A DNA stretch of 5,046 nucleotides, from positions 1-5,046 of IMG/VR virus record IMGVR_UViG_2563366924_000001; one strand, written 5' to 3'. How positions within the stretch are numbered: the first letter of the stretch is position 1; every line of letters starts with the position of its first letter. Of the stretch, positions 1,161-4,962 are shown one piece after another. The translations under genes and the position numbers were made by a program. Source of the stretch: a virus (lineage: Duplodnaviria; Heunggongvirae; Uroviricota; Caudoviricetes). The notes beneath the pieces are model-generated. The model had not been told where the DNA came from and searched no databases. It saw nothing but the letters and a program-made list of their open reading frames with translations.

Positions 1161-1475
1161 TTAATTTATTCGTATGCCTGCTCTTTCTTCATCGAGTTTT
1201 TTTAGCTTGTATCGCATAGCTCTTACTGAATAAATTGAGCGGCAGGTTGCAATTGCTATTTCTTCTGCGGAGAACTTACCGAAAAGTGATACTTCGGCTC
1301 TTGTCCATCGTCTTCCACGAAGTCGGCTAACAATGTCAGCTCCAATCCTTGTTGCTTTCGCCATTACTGCTTTTTCAGTCCTTTCCAGTTTTTCAGCGAT
1401 AACTTCAACTGGCATTGTCGCCGCTACTTCGCGCAAGAAATCGACTTCCCATTTCTCCCATGGAGTCTTTTTCAT
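1161..1475 (-). CDS. Hypothetical 104-aa protein with two helix-turn-helix-like segments; possible DNA-binding protein
   Basis: ATG at 1475, 11 nt after the upstream stop, with a weak SD. Two internally similar segments, each a Trp followed by an acidic helix and an I-A-x-x-L/C-x-R-x-x-x-V-x-x-R type HTH-like pattern ([15 protein letters not shown] and [19 protein letters not shown]). Confidence 0.6.
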
Positions 1476-1486
1476 AGGCGATACCG

Positions 1487-1969
1487 TTATTTGATAAGAA
1501 GTGAAGGTTTCCCAACTTTGAGTTGAGCGCCGGGGATATTTATTCCTGCTTTTAGTTGGTGTTTGATTGCCAGTTTGTCGGCTTTAATTGTCGTTTCAAA
1601 CTCAACGTATTCAGGAGGAAGGGCGCTTGAGTCGATTATTTCTACAATTTCTGACGGTTTGCGGATTGTTACCTGGTGAATACCTGCTCGAATATTTTTC
1701 TTGCCAACCATTTCAAGCGATGACGCTATATATGATTTGATGCTGTCAATCTTATTTTGGATTACTGCGGCTCGCTCATTCAGTGACTTTGCCTCTTCCT
1801 TGAGGCGTTCAGCATAACCAGATTCATTTTTAATGACGGAAAGAAGTTGCTCTATTTTATCGGTAAATTCTCCTTCCATGCCTTCTATTGTGTCAGCAAT
1901 CATCTCTGGCTCTAAATCTGAATCCATCAGCTTTGCGTATTCATTGGCTATTTCATACAGTTTGCTCAC
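1487..1969 (-). CDS. Gp157-like / Gam-like recombination-associated protein, about 160 aa
   Basis: ORF immediately downstream of recT, overlapping it by 17 nt. Start re-placed to the GTG at 1969, which has SD GGAGG and a 6-nt spacer; the track's TTG at 1975 sits directly against the SD. Size, coiled-coil N-terminal half and position next to RecT fit Siphovirus Gp157-type proteins (Pfam PF05565); the family call is from memory only. Confidence 0.7.
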   Translation of the reverse strand: MSKLYEIANEYAKLMDSDLEPEMIADTIEGMEGEFTDKIEQLLSVIKNESGYAERLKEEAKSLNERAAVIQNKIDSIKSYIASSLEMVGKKNIRAGIHQVTIRKPSEIVEIIDSSALPPEYVEFETTIKADKLAIKHQLKAGINIPGAQLKVGKPSLLIK

Positions 1970-2864
1970 TGGCAACCTCCAGTTTCGCTTTGCATTCTGT
2001 GTAAATGGCTTGTACGTTCTGCTGCAATTTCATTCCAGATGTCAGGCGATATGCTTCTGCAAAATATCGCTTCAAATCATCCATGTTTTCTGCCTGAGCC
2101 ATTTCATCACAAAGAAGTTGTGCTTTTTCCGTTATTTCCTGCTGGCGTTTCCTTTCATCTTCGCGGATATCTTCCTCTGATTTGTGCGGCATAACTGGTT
2201 CAGTCCACACACCTTCTTCTTCGTTTAGTACGTGAATAGCACTATCAAGACGTGATGCCTTAGGCCAATACTTGCTTGCACGCTTTACGACCGTCTTTCG
2301 CGCCATCTCATTCCAGTGATTTACCCATGGTCCTTTATCGCTGAATGCCGCCTTGCTTGTTTTCCTTACAGCCTCAATTTCAGCCAGACTCATCTCTTCC
2401 GTTAGATAATCACCTGCTGGCGTCTTAACTGTGCAGTAAACACCAACTATATCGCCACGATCACCGAAGGCGTTGTATTTATGGGTTGGTGCTTTATCAA
2501 GTCCGTTTGACTCATAAGTATCGTTAGCATGAACAAGCTTTGCCTGACCCCATGAGATAACACCAGACTCCATTGCAATATGGAGCAATCCCATATAGCT
2601 GATATCAAGGCAAACCATGCCGTCGCGAGGAACCAGATAAGCCAGTTTGCTGGCCGGGTTTAAGGTGATGCCGATCGCCGCAACATTGATGATAGCGTTC
2701 TGTGCGCTGGTTGGATTTGCCAGTGCTGTTTTAGCCAGGTAATCGTTTTTCTGGAAATACTGAATTGCAAACTGGCTTTCCTTAGCCCATGTCACCGTCT
2801 GTTCAGTCAATGCTCCGCAGAATAACTGCTCCTGCTGTTTAACGAATTCAACGATATTGCTCAT
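1953..2864 (-). CDS. recT: RecT-family single-strand annealing protein (recombinase), 303 aa
   Basis: Contains the RecT-type motif KGPWVNHWNEMARKTVVKRASKYWP (compare Rac RecT NGPWVTHWEEMAKKTAIRRLFKYLP, from memory). SD GGAGA 6 nt before the ATG. Acidic C-terminal extension. Sits in the recombination module of the pL operon. Confidence 0.85.
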   Translation of the reverse strand: MSNIVEFVKQQEQLFCGALTEQTVTWAKESQFAIQYFQKNDYLAKTALANPTSAQNAIINVAAIGITLNPASKLAYLVPRDGMVCLDISYMGLLHIAMESGVISWGQAKLVHANDTYESNGLDKAPTHKYNAFGDRGDIVGVYCTVKTPAGDYLTEEMSLAEIEAVRKTSKAAFSDKGPWVNHWNEMARKTVVKRASKYWPKASRLDSAIHVLNEEEGVWTEPVMPHKSEEDIREDERKRQQEITEKAQLLCDEMAQAENMDDLKRYFAEAYRLTSGMKLQQNVQAIYTECKAKLEVASEQTV

Positions 2865-3172
2865 GCTGCTTCTCCAAAAATGTGTCTGCGTTTAAATATT
2901 GCGAAGGCATATTCAGCCTTAACTCTTTCGGTTATTGCATCCCAGAACCATTCAGCGGCTTTTTCCTGATAGTTACAGTCATCATCTTCCAGCCAGTCGA
3001 TAGCGTCCTTAGTGTGTTCATCTGGTTTATATGAGCGAAGCATTTCGCTTATTGGGTCGCAACGTTTGCAGAGGCGATCAACTTCACTGTTGATTCGTTC
3101 GTAATCTTCATCAGTAAAACTTGCGATAATTTGCGATATTTCACGCTTATCATTCAGAGTCAGAATCATCAT
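2861..3172 (-). CDS. Hypothetical 103-aa acidic protein, translationally coupled to recT; possible host-nuclease inhibitor by position (inference)
   Basis: ATGATG start with SD AGGAGA. Its TGA stop overlaps the recT ATG (ATGA). Occupies the position held by gam (lambda) or abc (P22) directly upstream of the annealing-protein gene. No family recognised. Confidence 0.7.
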   Translation of the reverse strand: MMILTLNDKREISQIIASFTDEDYERINSEVDRLCKRCDPISEMLRSYKPDEHTKDAIDWLEDDDCNYQEKAAEWFWDAITERVKAEYAFAIFKRRHIFGEAA

Positions 3173-3257
3173 CTTTCTCCTGTTCTTTGTGCTGATTGAG
3201 CATTTTGTTCATCTGACGAATGAATTCTTCGTCTGACCATGTATCCGCAATACTCAT
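3144..3257 (-). CDS. Hypothetical small acidic protein, 37 aa
   Basis: Found by hand. ATG at 3257 overlaps the stop of the upstream 54-aa ORF (ATGA). Translation: MSIADTWSDEEFIRQMNKMLNQHKEQEKDDDSDSE. Overlaps the start of the next gene by 29 nt in another frame. Short and low-complexity, so uncertain. Confidence 0.35.
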
Positions 3258-3418: not shown

Positions 3419-3585
3419 GGCTGTACCTTTTGATTCAGAAACTCAACAAGACGATCCAGCAAGCTCTTAACGCGAGGTTGTTTAAAGTCTGCTCCGGTTA
3501 AAATATTTTTTCGTGAATGCTGTACCGATAAAATCGGGTTGAAAGGGCGAACCGATGCCGCCCCTGCAATAGCGAACTGTTGCAT
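3415..3585 (-). CDS. cIII: cIII-like small regulatory protein (FtsH/HflB protease inhibitor family), 56 aa
   Basis: ATG at 3585 preceded by SD AGGAG with a 6-nt spacer. N-terminus MQQFAIAG resembles lambda cIII MQYAIAG, and ...SLLDRLVEFLNQ resembles the cIII central helix (recalled, not searched). Position after tL and before the recombination genes matches lambda. The 91-aa track ORF is this gene with a spurious TTG-initiated extension that runs through the terminator. Confidence 0.55.
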   Translation of the reverse strand: MQQFAIAGAASVRPFNPILSVQHSRKNILTGADFKQPRVKSLLDRLVEFLNQKVQP

Positions 3586-3650
3586 AGGATGCTCCTTCTG
3601 TTTGATTGCATAACGAAAACGCCTCGAGTGAAGCGTTATTGGTATGCATA

Positions 3651-3675
3651 TAAAAAAGCCCTCACATCGGAGGGC
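3651..3675 (-). terminator. Rho-independent terminator on the minus strand (tL-like), between the accessory cassette and the cIII-like gene
   Basis: Minus-strand RNA: GCCCUC-CGAUGU-GAGGGC followed by UUUUUUA. That is a 6-bp GC-rich stem (plus 3658-3663 / 3670-3675), a 6-nt loop and a 6-U tail (complement of plus 3652-3657). Confidence 0.6.
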
Positions 3676-3737
3676 AAAGAAGATTTCCAATAATCAGAAC
3701 AAGTCGGCTCCTGTTTAGTTACGAGCGACATTGCTCC

Positions 3738-3765
3738 GTGTATTCACTCGTTGGAATGAATACAC
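3738..3765 (-). other. Perfect 9-bp inverted repeat (GTGTATTCA / TGAATACAC) with 10-nt spacer; candidate RNA hairpin or protein-binding site
   Basis: Read directly: plus 3738-3746 GTGTATTCA, spacer ctcgttggaa, 3757-3765 TGAATACAC. Sits 15 nt downstream of the 156-aa gene stop. No U-tract follows on either strand. Confidence 0.4.
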
Positions 3766-3779
3766 AGTGCTTATTCGTA

Positions 3780-4250
3780 CTAATAAAATACCCAATTTTC
3801 TGTTTCTTGGTTGTGTCCAAAGTTATATTCAATATCTGGTGTTGATGTATCAATATTCTTCATCCCATCAACAAGAGTTGATACAACAGCCAAATCTTGT
3901 TTGATTCTCATTAAATGGTACTTCTTCCGGCGCAATAAACTTTCAATGGCAAGTTTCTTCGTTGGGAATGCAAAAGATCTTTCTGCATTTTTTGCTACTT
4001 TCTTAATTGCATATCTATTTCTCCTTTGTTTCCATTCCTGTAACCACTGATTTGGTGCTGGTTTAAAATTAACAATCCAATGCGCAGGAACCAACCATGC
4101 ATAATGCTCTGTCTGATGAAAAGCTATATATTGAAGTGCGAATATTTTTATCCCATCTTCTTCAACTGTCGCCTGGAATCTCCAGAAAACAGGCATTCCA
4201 TCATGTTCAGTTTCTGATTCAGGAAAAGGTACGCTCCATGATTTTGTCAT
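3780..4250 (-). CDS. Hypothetical 156-aa protein, Trp-rich N-terminal half and strongly basic central segment; function unknown (accessory/moron gene)
   Basis: Longest ORF in this segment, co-oriented with the operon. SD GAGGTGAGAT before the ATG at 4250. Seven Trp residues, and a K/R-rich stretch (WKQRRNRYAIKKVAKNAERSFAFPTKKLAIESLLRRKKYHLMRIKQ). Hand counts on sampled 60-nt lines give about 28-40% GC here versus 45-48% in flanking phage genes. I recognise no family. Confidence 0.7.
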   Translation of the reverse strand: MTKSWSVPFPESETEHDGMPVFWRFQATVEEDGIKIFALQYIAFHQTEHYAWLVPAHWIVNFKPAPNQWLQEWKQRRNRYAIKKVAKNAERSFAFPTKKLAIESLLRRKKYHLMRIKQDLAVVSTLVDGMKNIDTSTPDIEYNFGHNQETENWVFY

Positions 4251-4330
4251 ATCTCACCTCAAATAATTCAGTGCAGTGTTTATTCTGTTGTTTATGCCAA
4301 AAGAAGGCCGACTATGCGGCATAATTATTT

Positions 4331-4519
4331 TTAACTATCATCAATACATGGCACTTTATTCCAGTCGATATCGTTTTTATTGTCGTCCCACATGTCTTTG
4401 TTTTTGTATTTCTCGCTACATCCTAGGCAAATGTTGTATGGCCTACCGATAAGGTTTAACGAAATACGTTGCATTTCATTTGATTCAAACATGTATCCAC
4501 AGAACTGACATTTATGCAT
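4331..4519 (-). CDS. Small zinc-ribbon protein, 62 aa, acidic C-terminal tail; function unknown (accessory/moron gene)
   Basis: ORF with CxxC (C4,C7) and CxxC (C31,C34) separated by 23 residues. SD GAGG about 8 nt upstream of the ATG. Lies in a low-GC segment immediately downstream of N. Confidence 0.6.
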   Translation of the reverse strand: MHKCQFCGYMFESNEMQRISLNLIGRPYNICLGCSEKYKNKDMWDDNKNDIDWNKVPCIDDS

Positions 4520-4578: not shown

Positions 4579-4962
4579 TCACCTCGCCGTCAGTTGTTTT
4601 GATTTCCGGTAGCCTGCCGCGTAAATGGCTACGTTTGGAAGACATACACCAGTTTCTGGTTGCTTATGTCCAAACTCATTCGCGTACACAATGGCCGCTC
4701 GCTCCAGATTGCGTCTGTATTCTTTCTGTTGCCAGATCACGTCCTGTGCCATGAACTTAATTGGCTTAGCGTCTTCTATGCGCTCAGGCGTTTCGTGAGT
4801 ACCTTTAGCCTGAATCTGCGCTCTGCTTAGAGTAGGGCGGTGTAATACTTCTGAACTTATTGCTTCTTCGCGGGCCAGTACGCCGTTAGCTAATGCCTTT
4901 GCCTTTAAACGCTCACGACGACGAGAACGTGAATTGCCTTTGAACTGAGTTCTGCGTGTCAT
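4579..4962 (-). CDS. N: N-type transcription antitermination protein (P22 gene 24 / lambda N family), 127 aa
   Basis: N-terminal arginine-rich motif (SRSRRRERLKAKALA) of the kind that binds boxB RNA in N proteins. C-terminus ...LPNVAIYAAGYRKSKQLTAR closely resembles my recollection of the P22 gp24 C-terminus. Strong SD (AGGAGG, 5-nt spacer) before the ATG at 4962. It is the first gene of a leftward operon, followed by a terminator and a cIII-like gene. Confidence 0.8.
   Translation of the reverse strand: MTRRTQFKGNSRSRRRERLKAKALANGVLAREEAISSEVLHRPTLSRAQIQAKGTHETPERIEDAKPIKFMAQDVIWQQKEYRRNLERAAIVYANEFGHKQPETGVCLPNVAIYAAGYRKSKQLTAR

What the first reader, a model, noticed from the sequence alone, without database searches (positions are those of the whole stretch)
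1487..3172. RecT recombinase without an adjacent exonuclease, flanked by a 103-aa protein and a Gp157-like protein
Single-strand annealing proteins usually sit beside a partner exonuclease (lambda exo, RecE, YqaJ). Here neither neighbour is large enough or looks like a nuclease: the upstream one is a 103-aa acidic protein and the downstream one a 160-aa coiled-coil Gp157/Gam-like protein. The module may rely on host nucleases, or the flanking proteins may be nuclease-modulating factors. Gp157-family proteins have been linked to phage-resistance phenotypes, which makes this pairing worth examining.
Basis: partly seen in the sequence, partly recalled or inferred. Interest (0 to 1): 0.5.

Follow-up and report, generated by a model that had tools for sequence, protein, structure and literature searches.

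The report
Nuclease-less RecT recombination module of lambdoid prophage
This is the recombination gene cluster of a common E. coli lambda-like prophage (HK140 type) in which the annealing protein RecT is paired with a Mu-Gam-like protein instead of an exonuclease, an arrangement already catalogued in 2025, so the finding is real but largely ordinary; only the small upstream 103-aa gene is still unexplained.

Summary
On the minus strand lie three translationally coupled genes: a 102/103-aa acidic protein (3172-2861), RecT (2864-1953; PF03837, E 2.9e-32) and a 160-aa Gp157-family protein (1969-1487; PF05565, E 2.4e-37). Neither neighbour shows nuclease homology. No lambda-Exo, YqaJ or RecE homolog exists anywhere in the complete genome of the near-identical phage HK140.

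The window is the early-left operon of an HK140/mEpX1-type lambdoid prophage. The trio occurs in 264 of 5,426 complete E. coli genomes. Zheng et al. 2025 (PMC12315714) already describe HK140's module as a RecT-type annealing protein with no nuclease, no SSB and a "MuGam"-type anti-RecBCD protein. They count 84 of 246 lambdoid Rec modules without a nuclease.

Two points go beyond that paper.
- RecT's C-terminal ~60 residues switch type with the downstream partner (Gp157 versus Exo/YqaJ), independently of the core. This predicts a direct RecT-Gp157 contact.
- The 103-aa protein (phrog_3486) always sits, start-stop overlapped, in the "gam slot" ahead of RecT, Erf or RecE-like genes, interchangeably with lambda Gam and GamL. 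Homology to Gam is not established.

Verdict: already known module; low-to-moderate interest.

The parts
2861..3172 (-). orf103: a 102/103-aa acidic, all-helical protein of family phrog_3486 (function unknown). It is the first gene of the recombination module and occupies the 'gam slot'.
   Evidence: ORF. phrog_3486 at E 3.7e-59, with no Pfam hit. There are 53 family representatives of about 100 aa at the 50% identity level. AF2 model: pLDDT 74.7, five helices. pI 4.65. Its stop overlaps the recT start as ATGA, and a GGAG Shine-Dalgarno motif lies in its last codons.
1953..2864 (-). recT: single-strand annealing protein of the RecT family ('SAP-4' type of Zheng et al.). The core spans about residues 1-230. 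A C-terminal tail (about 236-303) is of the type found only with a Gp157 partner.
   Evidence: PF03837 E 2.9e-32. TIGR00616 82.4 bits, above the 52.65 cut-off; below the cut-off for the Rac RecT equivalog NF007351 (102 against 296). Tail and partner co-variation shown.
1487..1969 (-). gp157: 160-aa Sipho_Gp157-family protein, labelled 'Mu Gam-like end protection' in PHROGs and RefSeq. It occupies the position that the exonuclease holds in lambda and phi80.
   Evidence: PF05565 E 2.4e-37 and phrog_253 E 5e-54. GTG start 6 nt after GGAGG, with a 17-nt overlap with the recT 3' end. AF2 model: pLDDT 79.7, long helix 21-88 plus a beta domain. PF07352 sub-threshold in relatives. hhalign against Mu Gam is collinear over 63 columns, and 7 of 250 shuffles reach its score.
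3150..3257 (-). Unannotated 35-aa acidic ORF (MSIADTWSDEEFIRQMNKMLNQHKEQEKDDDSDSE). Its start overlaps the stop of the preceding 54-aa gene (ATGA) and its end overlaps the start of orf103. It may be an Arf-like accessory gene; membership of the module is uncertain.
   Evidence: Translation. phrog_17766 E 2e-13, phrog_2123 ('recombinase') E 3.9e-07, phrog_2445 (Arf) E 0.05. P22 Arf tblastn E 0.056 at the same place.
1161..1475 (-). 104-aa basic HTH protein (phrog_323, 'D5-like regulator'), directly downstream of gp157. It is a homolog of phage Mu gp9, which lies directly before gam in Mu. It is a neighbour and is not shown to belong to the module.
   Evidence: phrog_323 E 2.8e-20. BLASTP against Mu gp9 E 5e-05. 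Mu gene order. No similarity to P22 Abc1 or Abc2.
4579..4962 (-). N-type transcription antiterminator. It marks the start of the early-left (pL) operon in which the module is transcribed. Context only.
   Evidence: PF25694 E 2.1e-15 and phrog_271 E 3.1e-39. Same gene order in HK140.

Best explanation
The region is the homologous-recombination ('Rec') module of an HK140/mEpX1-type lambdoid prophage of E. coli, transcribed leftward from pL after N. It consists of three translationally coupled genes: orf103 (phrog_3486), recT and gp157.

Shown here:
- The gene identities, the start-stop coupling, and the absence of any phage exonuclease.
- The same trio in functional phages and in about 5% of complete E. 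coli genomes.
- Slot 1 can hold orf103, GamL or lambda Gam. Slot 3 can hold Gp157 or Exo/YqaJ. The two slots combine freely, while the RecT C-terminal tail co-varies only with slot 3.

Inferred mechanism:
- RecT anneals single-stranded phage DNA to complementary DNA.
- Gp157 is a distant Mu-Gam/Ku-like dimer that binds double-strand ends and keeps RecBCD off them.
- Gp157 is tethered to RecT through the RecT tail, as lambda Exo is to the Red-beta C-terminal domain (PMC6393309).
- The single-stranded substrate comes from host functions (RecBCD-independent nucleases or helicases, or replication-fork gaps) rather than from a phage exonuclease. This places the module in the P22-like functional class: anti-RecBCD plus annealing protein, no nuclease.
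- orf103 most likely acts on a host target rather than on RecT, plausibly as a further anti-nuclease factor that fills the role of gam or gamL.
For: Module identity and distribution:
- HMM hits identify the genes.
- The window is 97-99% identical to HK140, mEpX1, Gally, Kapi1 and E. coli prophages.
- The trio is present at >= 80% coverage in 264 of 5,426 genomes.
- No Exo, YqaJ, RecE, Abc1 or Abc2 homolog is found in complete HK140.

Published classification:
- HK140 is described as SAP-4 with no nuclease, no SSB and MuGam-type anti-RecBCD. 84 of 246 modules lack a nuclease, and the P22 functional class holds 46 phages (PMC12315714).

RecT tail and partner:
- In 7 Gp157-partnered RecTs the tail is 40-95% identical to the window's and 13-21% identical to phi80's.
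- In 6 Exo/YqaJ-partnered RecTs the tail is 14-23% identical to the window's and 38-81% identical to phi80's.
- This holds even though the TL-2011c core (66%) is closer to the window than the Vibrio core (54%).

Gp157 and Mu Gam:
- PF07352 matches nearly the whole profile at E 0.003-0.004 in HK639 and in 5 of 27 relatives.
- hhalign is collinear over the beta domain.
- The architecture is a long helix plus a beta domain.

orf103:
- It lies immediately ahead of, and start-stop overlapped with, RecT, ERF or a RecE-like gene in 12 of 12 loci.
- The same slot holds lambda Gam in Dewey and GamL in phi80, HK639, KO-TP1, TL-2011c and L028.
- It is acidic like GamL.
- It shares a 23-25-column motif with lambda Gam that no column shuffle out of 400 reaches.
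- There are zero Chi sites in ENT47670, and in the sequenced parts of SEN22 and Midgardsormr38. These phages carry orf103 but no recognised anti-RecBCD gene.
Against: - No experiment bears on any of the three proteins.
- The window's own Gp157 does not hit PF07352 at E <= 0.1.
- hhalign probability against Mu Gam is 1.3%.
- Foldseek finds no Ku or Gam structure in the PDB. In BFVD it finds only Gp157-family and unnamed proteins.
- Gp157 is acidic (pI 5.4) whereas Mu Gam is near neutral (pI 7.8).
- A Ku-like end cap does not by itself explain where single-stranded DNA comes from.
- For orf103, none of 37 family members hits Pfam Gam. The family profile finds nothing relevant, and no lambda Gam chain, among PDB sequences at E <= 10. 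The model finds no Gam fold. There is no signal against GamL, and orf103 lacks the N-terminal MNAYLTYDRIE motif that Gam and GamL share.
- The Chi argument rests on three phages, two of them incompletely read. Their operons were not searched exhaustively for other inhibitors.
- The supplementary tables of PMC12315714 were not available. That their 'MuGam' of HK140 is this Gp157 homolog is inferred from the RefSeq/PHROG label.
Confidence: 0.6

Rival explanations
1. Gp157 is not an end-protecting RecBCD antagonist. It is a non-catalytic RecT-specific mediator or loader that replaces only the scaffolding role of Exo. For example, it could bind ssDNA/dsDNA junctions or SSB-coated DNA and load RecT. 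Anti-RecBCD activity, if any, would reside in the slot-1 protein (orf103, GamL or lambda Gam).
For: - The RecT tail co-varies strictly with Gp157 versus Exo, which argues for a physical partnership rather than an independent host-directed function.
- Gp157 nearly always co-occurs with a slot-1 protein that is a known or candidate RecBCD inhibitor: lambda Gam in Dewey; GamL in HK639, KO-TP1 and L028; orf103 here and in Serratia. A second inhibitor would therefore seem redundant.
- Homology to Mu Gam is statistically weak.
- Gp157 is acidic, unlike Mu Gam.
- The model gives weak BFVD matches to phage proteins that carry PD-(D/E)XK or YqaJ nuclease domains. This hints that a Gp157-like module works alongside nucleases.
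Against: - PF07352 is the most frequent secondary Pfam hit apart from coiled-coil noise, and it aligns over nearly the whole profile.
- PHROGs, RefSeq and PMC12315714 class the protein as MuGam-type, the paper on the basis of predicted folds.
- Vibrio phage 1.247.A has RecT-Gp157 preceded by an HTH protein rather than a Gam-slot protein.
Confidence: 0.25
2. orf103 is a recombination cofactor of the annealing or nuclease proteins (an Arf-like accessory function), or a small regulator. It is not a host-nuclease inhibitor. Its position reflects only operon history.
For: - P22 Arf is likewise a small acidic protein encoded immediately upstream of, and overlapping, the annealing-protein gene.
- orf103 shows no significant homology to Gam or GamL by Pfam, PDB-sequence, Foldseek or GamL profile tests.
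- It always sits in tight translational coupling with the first Rec gene.
Against: - It precedes three unrelated or very distant partners (RecT, ERF, and a RecE-like PD-(D/E)XK nuclease), and both RecT tail types. This is hard to reconcile with a partner-specific cofactor.
- Known RecBCD inhibitors replace it in the same slot.
- It shares a motif with lambda Gam beyond shuffle expectation.
- The Chi-free genomes of orf103-only phages fit an anti-RecBCD role.
Confidence: 0.3
3. The module is a decaying remnant that lost its exonuclease. RecT and its neighbours are no longer a working recombination system.
For: - Prophage regions are often degraded.
- The ECONIH5 prophage has a pseudogene close by.
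Against: - The same intact trio is present in plaque-forming phages (HK140, mEpX1, Gally, Kapi1, Louie).
- RecT-Gp157 pairs are conserved with open frames at 50-70% identity in Serratia, Klebsiella and Vibrio phages.
- The overlapping start-stop architecture is preserved.
Confidence: 0.07

Closest known systems
HK140-type Rec module of lambdoid phages (SAP-4 plus MuGam-type anti-RecBCD, no nuclease, no SSB; Zheng, Casjens, Davidson, Amundsen & Smith 2025, PMC12315714)
   Same: The genes are 96-99% identical at protein level to the HK140 homologs: orf103 99%, RecT 98%, Gp157 96%. The order is the same and so is the pL-operon context.
   Different: Nothing substantive. The window differs only in the mosaic flanks (N type, and the ORFs between N and cIII). 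The paper does not discuss the orf103 gene or the co-variation of the RecT tail.
Phage P22 recombination module (arf-erf-abc1-abc2)
   Same: It is a lambdoid pL-operon module with an annealing protein, a RecBCD-directed accessory and no exonuclease. A small acidic ORF sits immediately upstream of the annealing-protein gene. It belongs to the same functional class in PMC12315714.
   Different: The annealing protein is Erf rather than RecT. Abc2 binds RecC and redirects RecBCD rather than capping DNA ends. There is no sequence similarity of any window protein to Abc1 or Abc2. Similarity of the 35-aa ORF to Arf is only weak.
Lambda Red (gam-bet-exo) and phi80 (gamL-recT-exo)
   Same: The three-slot order is the same: small acidic protein, then annealing protein, then partner. 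The phi80 RecT core is 58% identical to the window's.
   Different: Slot 3 holds Gp157 instead of a 5'-3' exonuclease, and the RecT tail is of a different type. Slot 1 holds phrog_3486, not Gam (PF06064) or GamL.
Phage Mu Gam (Ku-like DNA-end-binding protein, PF07352)
   Same: Size is similar. The architecture is the same: an N-terminal long helix followed by a small beta domain. There is a collinear weak profile alignment. Both lie next to a phrog_323 HTH gene.
   Different: There is no significant pairwise similarity. The window protein falls below the family threshold. It is acidic rather than near neutral. It is coupled to a RecT, which Mu lacks.

Membership tests
RecT family of single-strand annealing proteins (PF03837 / TIGR00616) | Profile match above the curated threshold over the annealing core | tested here: met
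   PF03837 scores 112.3 bits against a cut-off of 24, covering residues 31-217. TIGR00616 scores 82.4 bits against a cut-off of 52.65.
Rac prophage RecT ortholog (NCBIfam equivalog NF007351) | Score above the equivalog cut-off | tested here: not met
   102.2 bits against a cut-off of 296. It is a RecT-family member but not the Rac RecT ortholog.
Sipho_Gp157 (PF05565) | Full-length profile match above the gathering score | tested here: met
   128.9 bits against a cut-off of 28.6, covering profile positions 1-162 of 162. All 27 relatives also match.
Mu Gam / Ku-like end-binding proteins (PF07352) | Sequence-profile membership | tested here: inconclusive
   The window protein has no hit at E <= 0.1. 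The HK639 homolog hits at E 0.0038 over profile positions 13-147 of 149. 5 of 27 relatives are sub-threshold, best E 0.0034. hhalign scores 18.6 with probability 1.3%, and 7 of 250 shuffles reach that score. No cross-hits to the Mu Gam PHROGs 491 or 2205.
Mu Gam / Ku-like end-binding proteins (PF07352) | Ku-like fold | tested here: inconclusive
   The monomer AF2 model (pLDDT 79.7) has a long helix plus a beta domain. Foldseek finds no PDB match with E <= 0.001. BFVD returns Gp157-family and unnamed proteins only. The afdb50 library was unavailable.
Mu Gam / Ku-like end-binding proteins (PF07352) | Binds double-strand DNA ends as a dimer and blocks RecBCD | not testable with these tools
   Requires biochemistry or genetics.
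Lambda Gam (PF06064), considered for the 103-aa protein | Profile membership | tested here: not met
   None of 37 family members hits PF06064 at E <= 1. The family profile does not find lambda Gam chains among PDB sequences at E <= 10. Only a 23-25-column motif is shared (hhalign probability 16.6%, exceeding all 400 shuffles).
Lambda Gam (PF06064), considered for the 103-aa protein | Gam fold | tested here: not met
   Foldseek of the AF2 model (pLDDT 74.7) against the PDB gives no match with E <= 0.001 and no Gam entry in the list. Caveat: it is a monomer model of middling confidence, whereas Gam functions as a dimer.
GamL (phi80-type RecBCD inhibitor), considered for the 103-aa protein | Sequence-profile similarity, including the N-terminal MNAYLTYDRIE motif shared with lambda Gam | tested here: not met
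   hhalign of A3 against five GamL sequences scores 11.1, equal to the shuffle mean. Gam against GamL gives probability 92.8% over the N-terminal 15 columns, which orf103 lacks. The Pfam GamL model PF28165 is not in the copy that was searched.
Partner exonucleases (lambda Exo/YqaJ PF09588; RecE-like PD-(D/E)XK) | Nuclease-domain homology in either flanking protein or elsewhere in the phage | tested here: not met
   No nuclease family hits at E <= 0.1. tblastn of four exonucleases against the window, complete HK140 and the ECONIH5 prophage gives a best E of 0.065.
P22-type functional class of Rec modules (anti-RecBCD plus annealing protein, no nuclease, no SSB; PMC12315714) | Gene content: annealing protein present; nuclease and SSB absent; a candidate anti-RecBCD gene present | tested here: met
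   Gene content shown.
P22-type functional class of Rec modules (anti-RecBCD plus annealing protein, no nuclease, no SSB; PMC12315714) | Actual inhibition or redirection of RecBCD | not testable with these tools
   No experimental data were found for Gp157 or orf103.
P22 Abc1 / Abc2 / Arf | Sequence similarity | tested here: not met
   The 104-aa protein that phage Gally's record labels Abc1 has no alignment to P22 Abc1 or Abc2. There is no Abc1 or Abc2 signal in the window or in HK140. Only the 35-aa ORF shows a weak Arf signal (E 0.05-0.056).

The most novel reading that the evidence does not exclude
The 103-aa protein family (phrog_3486) is an unrecognised functional class of Rec-module protein. 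It would be a further type of host-nuclease (RecBCD) inhibitor that substitutes for lambda Gam and GamL at the head of RecT, Erf and RecE modules. In parallel, Gp157 would be a dedicated RecT-tail-binding partner that replaces the exonuclease. If so, several phages now scored as lacking an anti-RecBCD function (ENT47670, Midgardsormr38, SEN22) would in fact have one. The HK140-type module would then carry two layers of end protection.
Probability: 0.3. Interest if true: 0.5.

Novelty: already known. Interest (0 to 1): 0.25.

Why it matters
For the finding as stated, little is at stake. A RecT paired with a Gp157/MuGam-type protein and no exonuclease is a catalogued lambdoid module type.

Its practical interest is for recombineering and phage biology. 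It is a natural example of an annealing protein that works with an end-binding partner and host resection instead of its own nuclease.

The RecT tail and partner co-variation gives a concrete rule for choosing cognate partners when moving RecT proteins between hosts.

If orf103 proves to be a new RecBCD or host-nuclease antagonist, it would add a small inhibitor family. It would also refine the reported link between anti-RecBCD genes and the absence of Chi sites. It might further bear on which phages are sensitised to Gabija-type defences by end-binding proteins (PMC12407980).

Tried and rejected
1. orf103 as a lambda Gam homolog: not established.
- Support is limited to BLASTP 11/23 identities and an hhalign motif.
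- Pfam scans of 37 members failed to confirm it. So did a profile search of PDB sequences, Foldseek against the PDB and a comparison with GamL.

2. The 104-aa downstream protein as P22 Abc1, as annotated in phage Gally: rejected. There is no alignment. It is a phrog_323 HTH protein related to Mu gp9.

3. Either neighbour as a nuclease: rejected.

4. Solved-structure relatives by sequence, for orf103 and for Gp157 singly and as profiles: only noise.

5. Foldseek of the Gp157 model against the PDB: noise. The afdb50 library was not available.

6. Context surveys with the search for related loci on the orf103 alignments failed, because no stretch was conserved enough. They were replaced by tblastn in the phage collection and by the look-up of encoding contigs.

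7. Defence-system models (PADLOC): no meaningful hit.

8. Supplementary tables of PMC12315714 are not held. The exact gene that the authors call MuGam in HK140 could therefore not be read directly.

9. Literature searches for Gp157 with RecT returned only genome-annotation papers.
Full report
**What is in the window.** All sizeable ORFs lie on the minus strand and form the early-left operon of a lambdoid prophage. In order of transcription:

| Gene | Coordinates | Notes |
|---|---|---|
| N-type antiterminator | 4962-4579 | PF25694, E 2.1e-15 |
| Two ORFs of unknown function | 4519-4331 and 4250-3780 | in an AT-rich stretch |
| 54-aa ORF | 3418-3254 | its HK140 homolog is labelled CIII in RefSeq, but it has no Pfam Lambda_CIII hit here |
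| 102/103-aa ORF (orf103) | 3172-2861 | phrog_3486 |
| RecT | 2864-1953 | |
| Gp157-family protein | 1969-1487 | |
| 104-aa HTH protein | 1475-1161 | phrog_323 |
| Ead/Ea22-like protein | 1001-309 | |

The orf103 stop and the recT start overlap as ATGA. recT and gp157 overlap by 17 nt, and a GGAGG lies 6 nt before the gp157 GTG.

**Check of the observation.**
- RecT is solid: PF03837 E 2.9e-32, and TIGR00616 82 bits against a cut-off of 52.65. It is not the Rac RecT ortholog (NF007351, 102 bits against 296).
- Gp157 is solid: PF05565 E 2.4e-37 over the full length.
- The 103-aa protein is acidic (pI 4.65, net charge -9) and has no Pfam family.
- Neither neighbour resembles a nuclease.
I did this on the near-identical complete phage HK140. 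Its annotation lists only HNH endonucleases and RusA.
- tblastn with phi80 Exo, ENT47670 Exo, a YqaJ protein and the SEN22 RecE-like nuclease finds nothing better than E 0.065 in HK140, in the window, or in 28 kb of the ECONIH5 prophage. The same search finds no P22 Abc1 or Abc2.

**Where it comes from and how common it is.** The window is a mosaic that is 97-99% identical in pieces to phages HK140, mEpX1, Gally, Kapi1, 611R6 and Louie, and to many E. coli prophages. The 1.7-kb trio itself is present at >= 80% coverage in 264 of 5,426 complete E. coli genomes. Part of it is present in 446.

**It is already described.** Zheng, Casjens, Davidson, Amundsen and Smith (Genome Res 2025, PMC12315714) analysed the Rec modules of 325 lambdoid phages.
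- They cite HK140 explicitly as a phage in which annealing-protein sequence type 4 works with no phage SSB, no phage nuclease and a MuGam-type anti-RecBCD protein.
- They report that 84 of 246 modules lack a nuclease.
- The functional class 'anti-RecBCD plus annealing protein, no SSB, no nuclease' (prototype P22) holds 46 phages.
- Their supplementary tables are not held. I infer that their 'MuGam' of HK140 is the Gp157 homolog, because RefSeq and PHROGs label that gene 'Mu Gam-like end protection'.

The central point of the finding, a RecT without an exonuclease, is therefore a catalogued arrangement.

**Is Gp157 really Mu-Gam-like?** My own tests give only weak support.
- Pairwise BLASTP against Mu Gam shows nothing.
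- The window protein has no PF07352 hit at E <= 0.1. The HK639 homolog matches PF07352 at E 0.0038 over nearly the whole profile, and 5 of 27 relatives match sub-threshold.
- A profile-profile alignment against five Mu Gam homologs is collinear over the C-terminal beta domain (63 columns). Its score is 18.6, which 7 of 250 column shuffles reach.
- The AF2 model (pLDDT 79.7) has one long helix (21-88) followed by a small beta domain.
- Foldseek finds no PDB match. In BFVD it finds Gp157-family proteins, plus weak matches to phage proteins that carry PD-(D/E)XK or YqaJ nuclease domains.
- Gp157 is acidic (pI 5.4) while Mu Gam is near neutral (pI 7.8).

I treat the Mu-Gam relationship as likely but not demonstrated here.

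**RecT's tail tracks its partner.** I aligned 13 RecTs of this type.

| Partner gene | n | Core identity to window | Tail (residues 243-300) identity to window | Tail identity to phi80 |
|---|---|---|---|---|
| Gp157 (window, Dewey, HK639, KO-TP1, L028, Serratia, Vibrio 1.247.A) | 7 | 54-97% (six relatives) | 40-95% (six relatives) | 13-21% |
| Exo/YqaJ (phi80, TL-2011c, ENT47670, Midgardsormr38, L014, L015) | 6 | 47-66% | 14-23% | 38-81% (five relatives) |

- The TL-2011c core is closer to the window (66%) than the Vibrio core is (54%), yet its tail is of the other type.
- The tail type does not depend on the upstream gene.
- In lambda, the Red-beta C-terminal domain is what binds Exo and SSB (PMC6393309).

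I therefore infer that the RecT tail here contacts Gp157. Several of the sequences are close relatives, so the number of independent events is smaller than 13.

**The 103-aa protein.**
- It belongs to phrog_3486 (function unknown). The family has 53 representatives of about 100 aa at the 50% identity level.
- In every locus examined it is the gene immediately before the first Rec gene:
  - RecT followed by Exo/YqaJ in ENT47670, Midgardsormr38, P0045, P0053 and P0049;
  - RecT on the short P0070 contig, where the next gene is not seen;
  - ERF followed by YqaJ for P0060;
  - a RecE-like PD-(D/E)XK protein in SEN22 and for P0065;
  - RecT followed by Gp157 here and in Serratia.
- In 12 of 12 loci its stop overlaps the next start by 1 or 4 nt, and a GGAG/GAGG Shine-Dalgarno motif lies in its last codons. 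This explains the conserved C-terminal E-[A/V]-A.
- The same slot holds lambda Gam in phage Dewey, and GamL in phi80, TL-2011c, HK639, KO-TP1 and L028.
- Slot 1 (orf103, GamL or Gam) and slot 3 (Gp157 or Exo) therefore combine freely. That fits a slot-1 protein acting on a host target.
- orf103 is acidic, like GamL.
- It shares with lambda Gam a motif at the same relative position: [ST]-K-x-A-[IV]-x(4)-[DE]-D-D-x-x-[FY]-Q-E-[KR]-x-A-E. The hhalign score is 22.1 against a shuffle mean of 10.9 (sd 2.1, maximum 18.9, n = 400).
- Against homology:
  - no family member hits Pfam Gam;
  - the family profile does not find Gam among PDB sequences;
  - the AF2 model (pLDDT 74.7) finds no Gam fold;
  - there is no signal against GamL;
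  - orf103 lacks the N-terminal motif that Gam and GamL share.
- A further hint comes from Chi sites. ENT47670 (complete genome), SEN22 (31 of 41 kb read here; 0/0 in the paper's Table 1) and Midgardsormr38 (38 of 50 kb) carry orf103 but no recognised anti-RecBCD gene, and they contain no Chi sites. PMC12315714 associates that pattern with phages that do encode an inhibitor. The sample is small.

**Most likely mechanism.**
- Shown: RecT is the annealing protein. The three genes are co-translated. No phage exonuclease exists.
- Inferred:
  - Gp157 binds DNA ends and excludes RecBCD while tethered to RecT.
  - Single-stranded substrate is generated by host functions or exposed at replication forks.
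  - orf103 is a host-directed accessory, possibly a further anti-nuclease.
- The main rival is that Gp157 is a RecT loader rather than an end protector, with the slot-1 protein supplying any RecBCD inhibition.
- A recent preprint shows that Mu-Gam-type end binders sensitise phages to Gabija (PMC12407980). This is the most concrete current link between such proteins and phage-resistance phenotypes. No defence model matches anything in the window.

**Verdict.** The arrangement is already known. The unexplained remainder is the phrog_3486 gene, and the testable prediction is the RecT-tail contact with Gp157.

Noticed in passing
window 3150-3257 (-): An unannotated 35-aa acidic ORF lies between the 54-aa gene and orf103 and overlaps both. 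It matches phrog_17766 (E 2e-13) and phrog_2123 'recombinase' (E 3.9e-07), and weakly P22 Arf (phrog_2445 E 0.05; tblastn E 0.056). Database protein P0025 (69 aa) is a fusion of this ORF's first 31 residues to the last 38 of orf103, joined at a shared K/E-D-D-D coding stretch.
   Followed up: partly
window 1161-1475 (-); L011 5482-6325: The 104-aa HTH protein after gp157 is homologous to phage Mu gp9 (both phrog_323; BLASTP E 5e-05). In Mu, gp9 lies immediately before gam. So a phrog_323 gene sits next to a Gam-like gene in both phages, in opposite order. SEN22 keeps the phrog_323 gene without Gp157.
   Followed up: partly
L003 3413-3727 (phage Gally, OV696608.1): The homolog of the 104-aa protein is annotated 'Anti-RecBCD protein 1, similar to P22 Abc1'. 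BLASTP finds no alignment at all to P22 Abc1 or Abc2, so the label appears to be positional only.
   Followed up: yes
window 3500-4500: This is an AT-rich stretch (GC 0.36-0.39, against 0.42-0.48 elsewhere). It holds a 156-aa ORF (phrog_1636, unknown) and a 62-aa ORF with weak, sub-threshold zinc-finger/rubredoxin-type Pfam hits (phrog_19863, unknown). They lie between N and the recombination genes, which is a typical position for moron-like cargo. There are no PADLOC, Pfam or NCBIfam assignments.
   Followed up: partly
orf103-family loci L006-L008, L013-L019, L025 (junction with the downstream gene): The conserved C-terminus E-[A/V]-A of the phrog_3486 family coincides with a GGAG/GAGG Shine-Dalgarno motif and with a 1- or 4-nt stop/start overlap with the next gene in 12 of 12 loci. 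Part of the protein's conservation is therefore imposed by the downstream gene's translation signals.
   Followed up: yes
Gp157 model against BFVD: Beyond Gp157-family proteins, the model gives weak matches to larger phage proteins annotated as PD-(D/E)XK endonuclease-like (Tsukamurella phage TIN4, 398 aa, E 8.6e-03), exonuclease, and COG5377/YqaJ-type endonuclease. This could mean that a Gp157-like module is fused to nucleases in some phages.
   Followed up: no
HK140 complete genome (L024+L001+L012), positions 2143, 13519, 15106, 16201: HK140 has four Chi sites (GCTGGTGG), all on one strand and all in the late (structural) region, despite carrying a MuGam-type gene. The window itself has none.
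   Followed up: no
L009 2698-2979 (phi80 gamL) and alignment A6 (lambda Gam): Lambda Gam (short form) and GamL share a nearly identical N-terminal motif MNAYLTYDRIE..RW (hhalign probability 92.8% over 15 columns), although they are otherwise dissimilar. Some Salmonella Gam proteins carry both PF06064 and PF28165 precomputed hits.
   Followed up: partly
L004 3709-4149 (phage Dewey) and L003 3739-4179 (phage Gally): The Gp157 homolog is annotated from an internal Met (146 aa) in these records. This leaves a gap after recT. The GTG start with its GGAGG motif, which gives 160 aa and the recT overlap, is used in HK140 and in RefSeq E. coli annotations.
   Followed up: no
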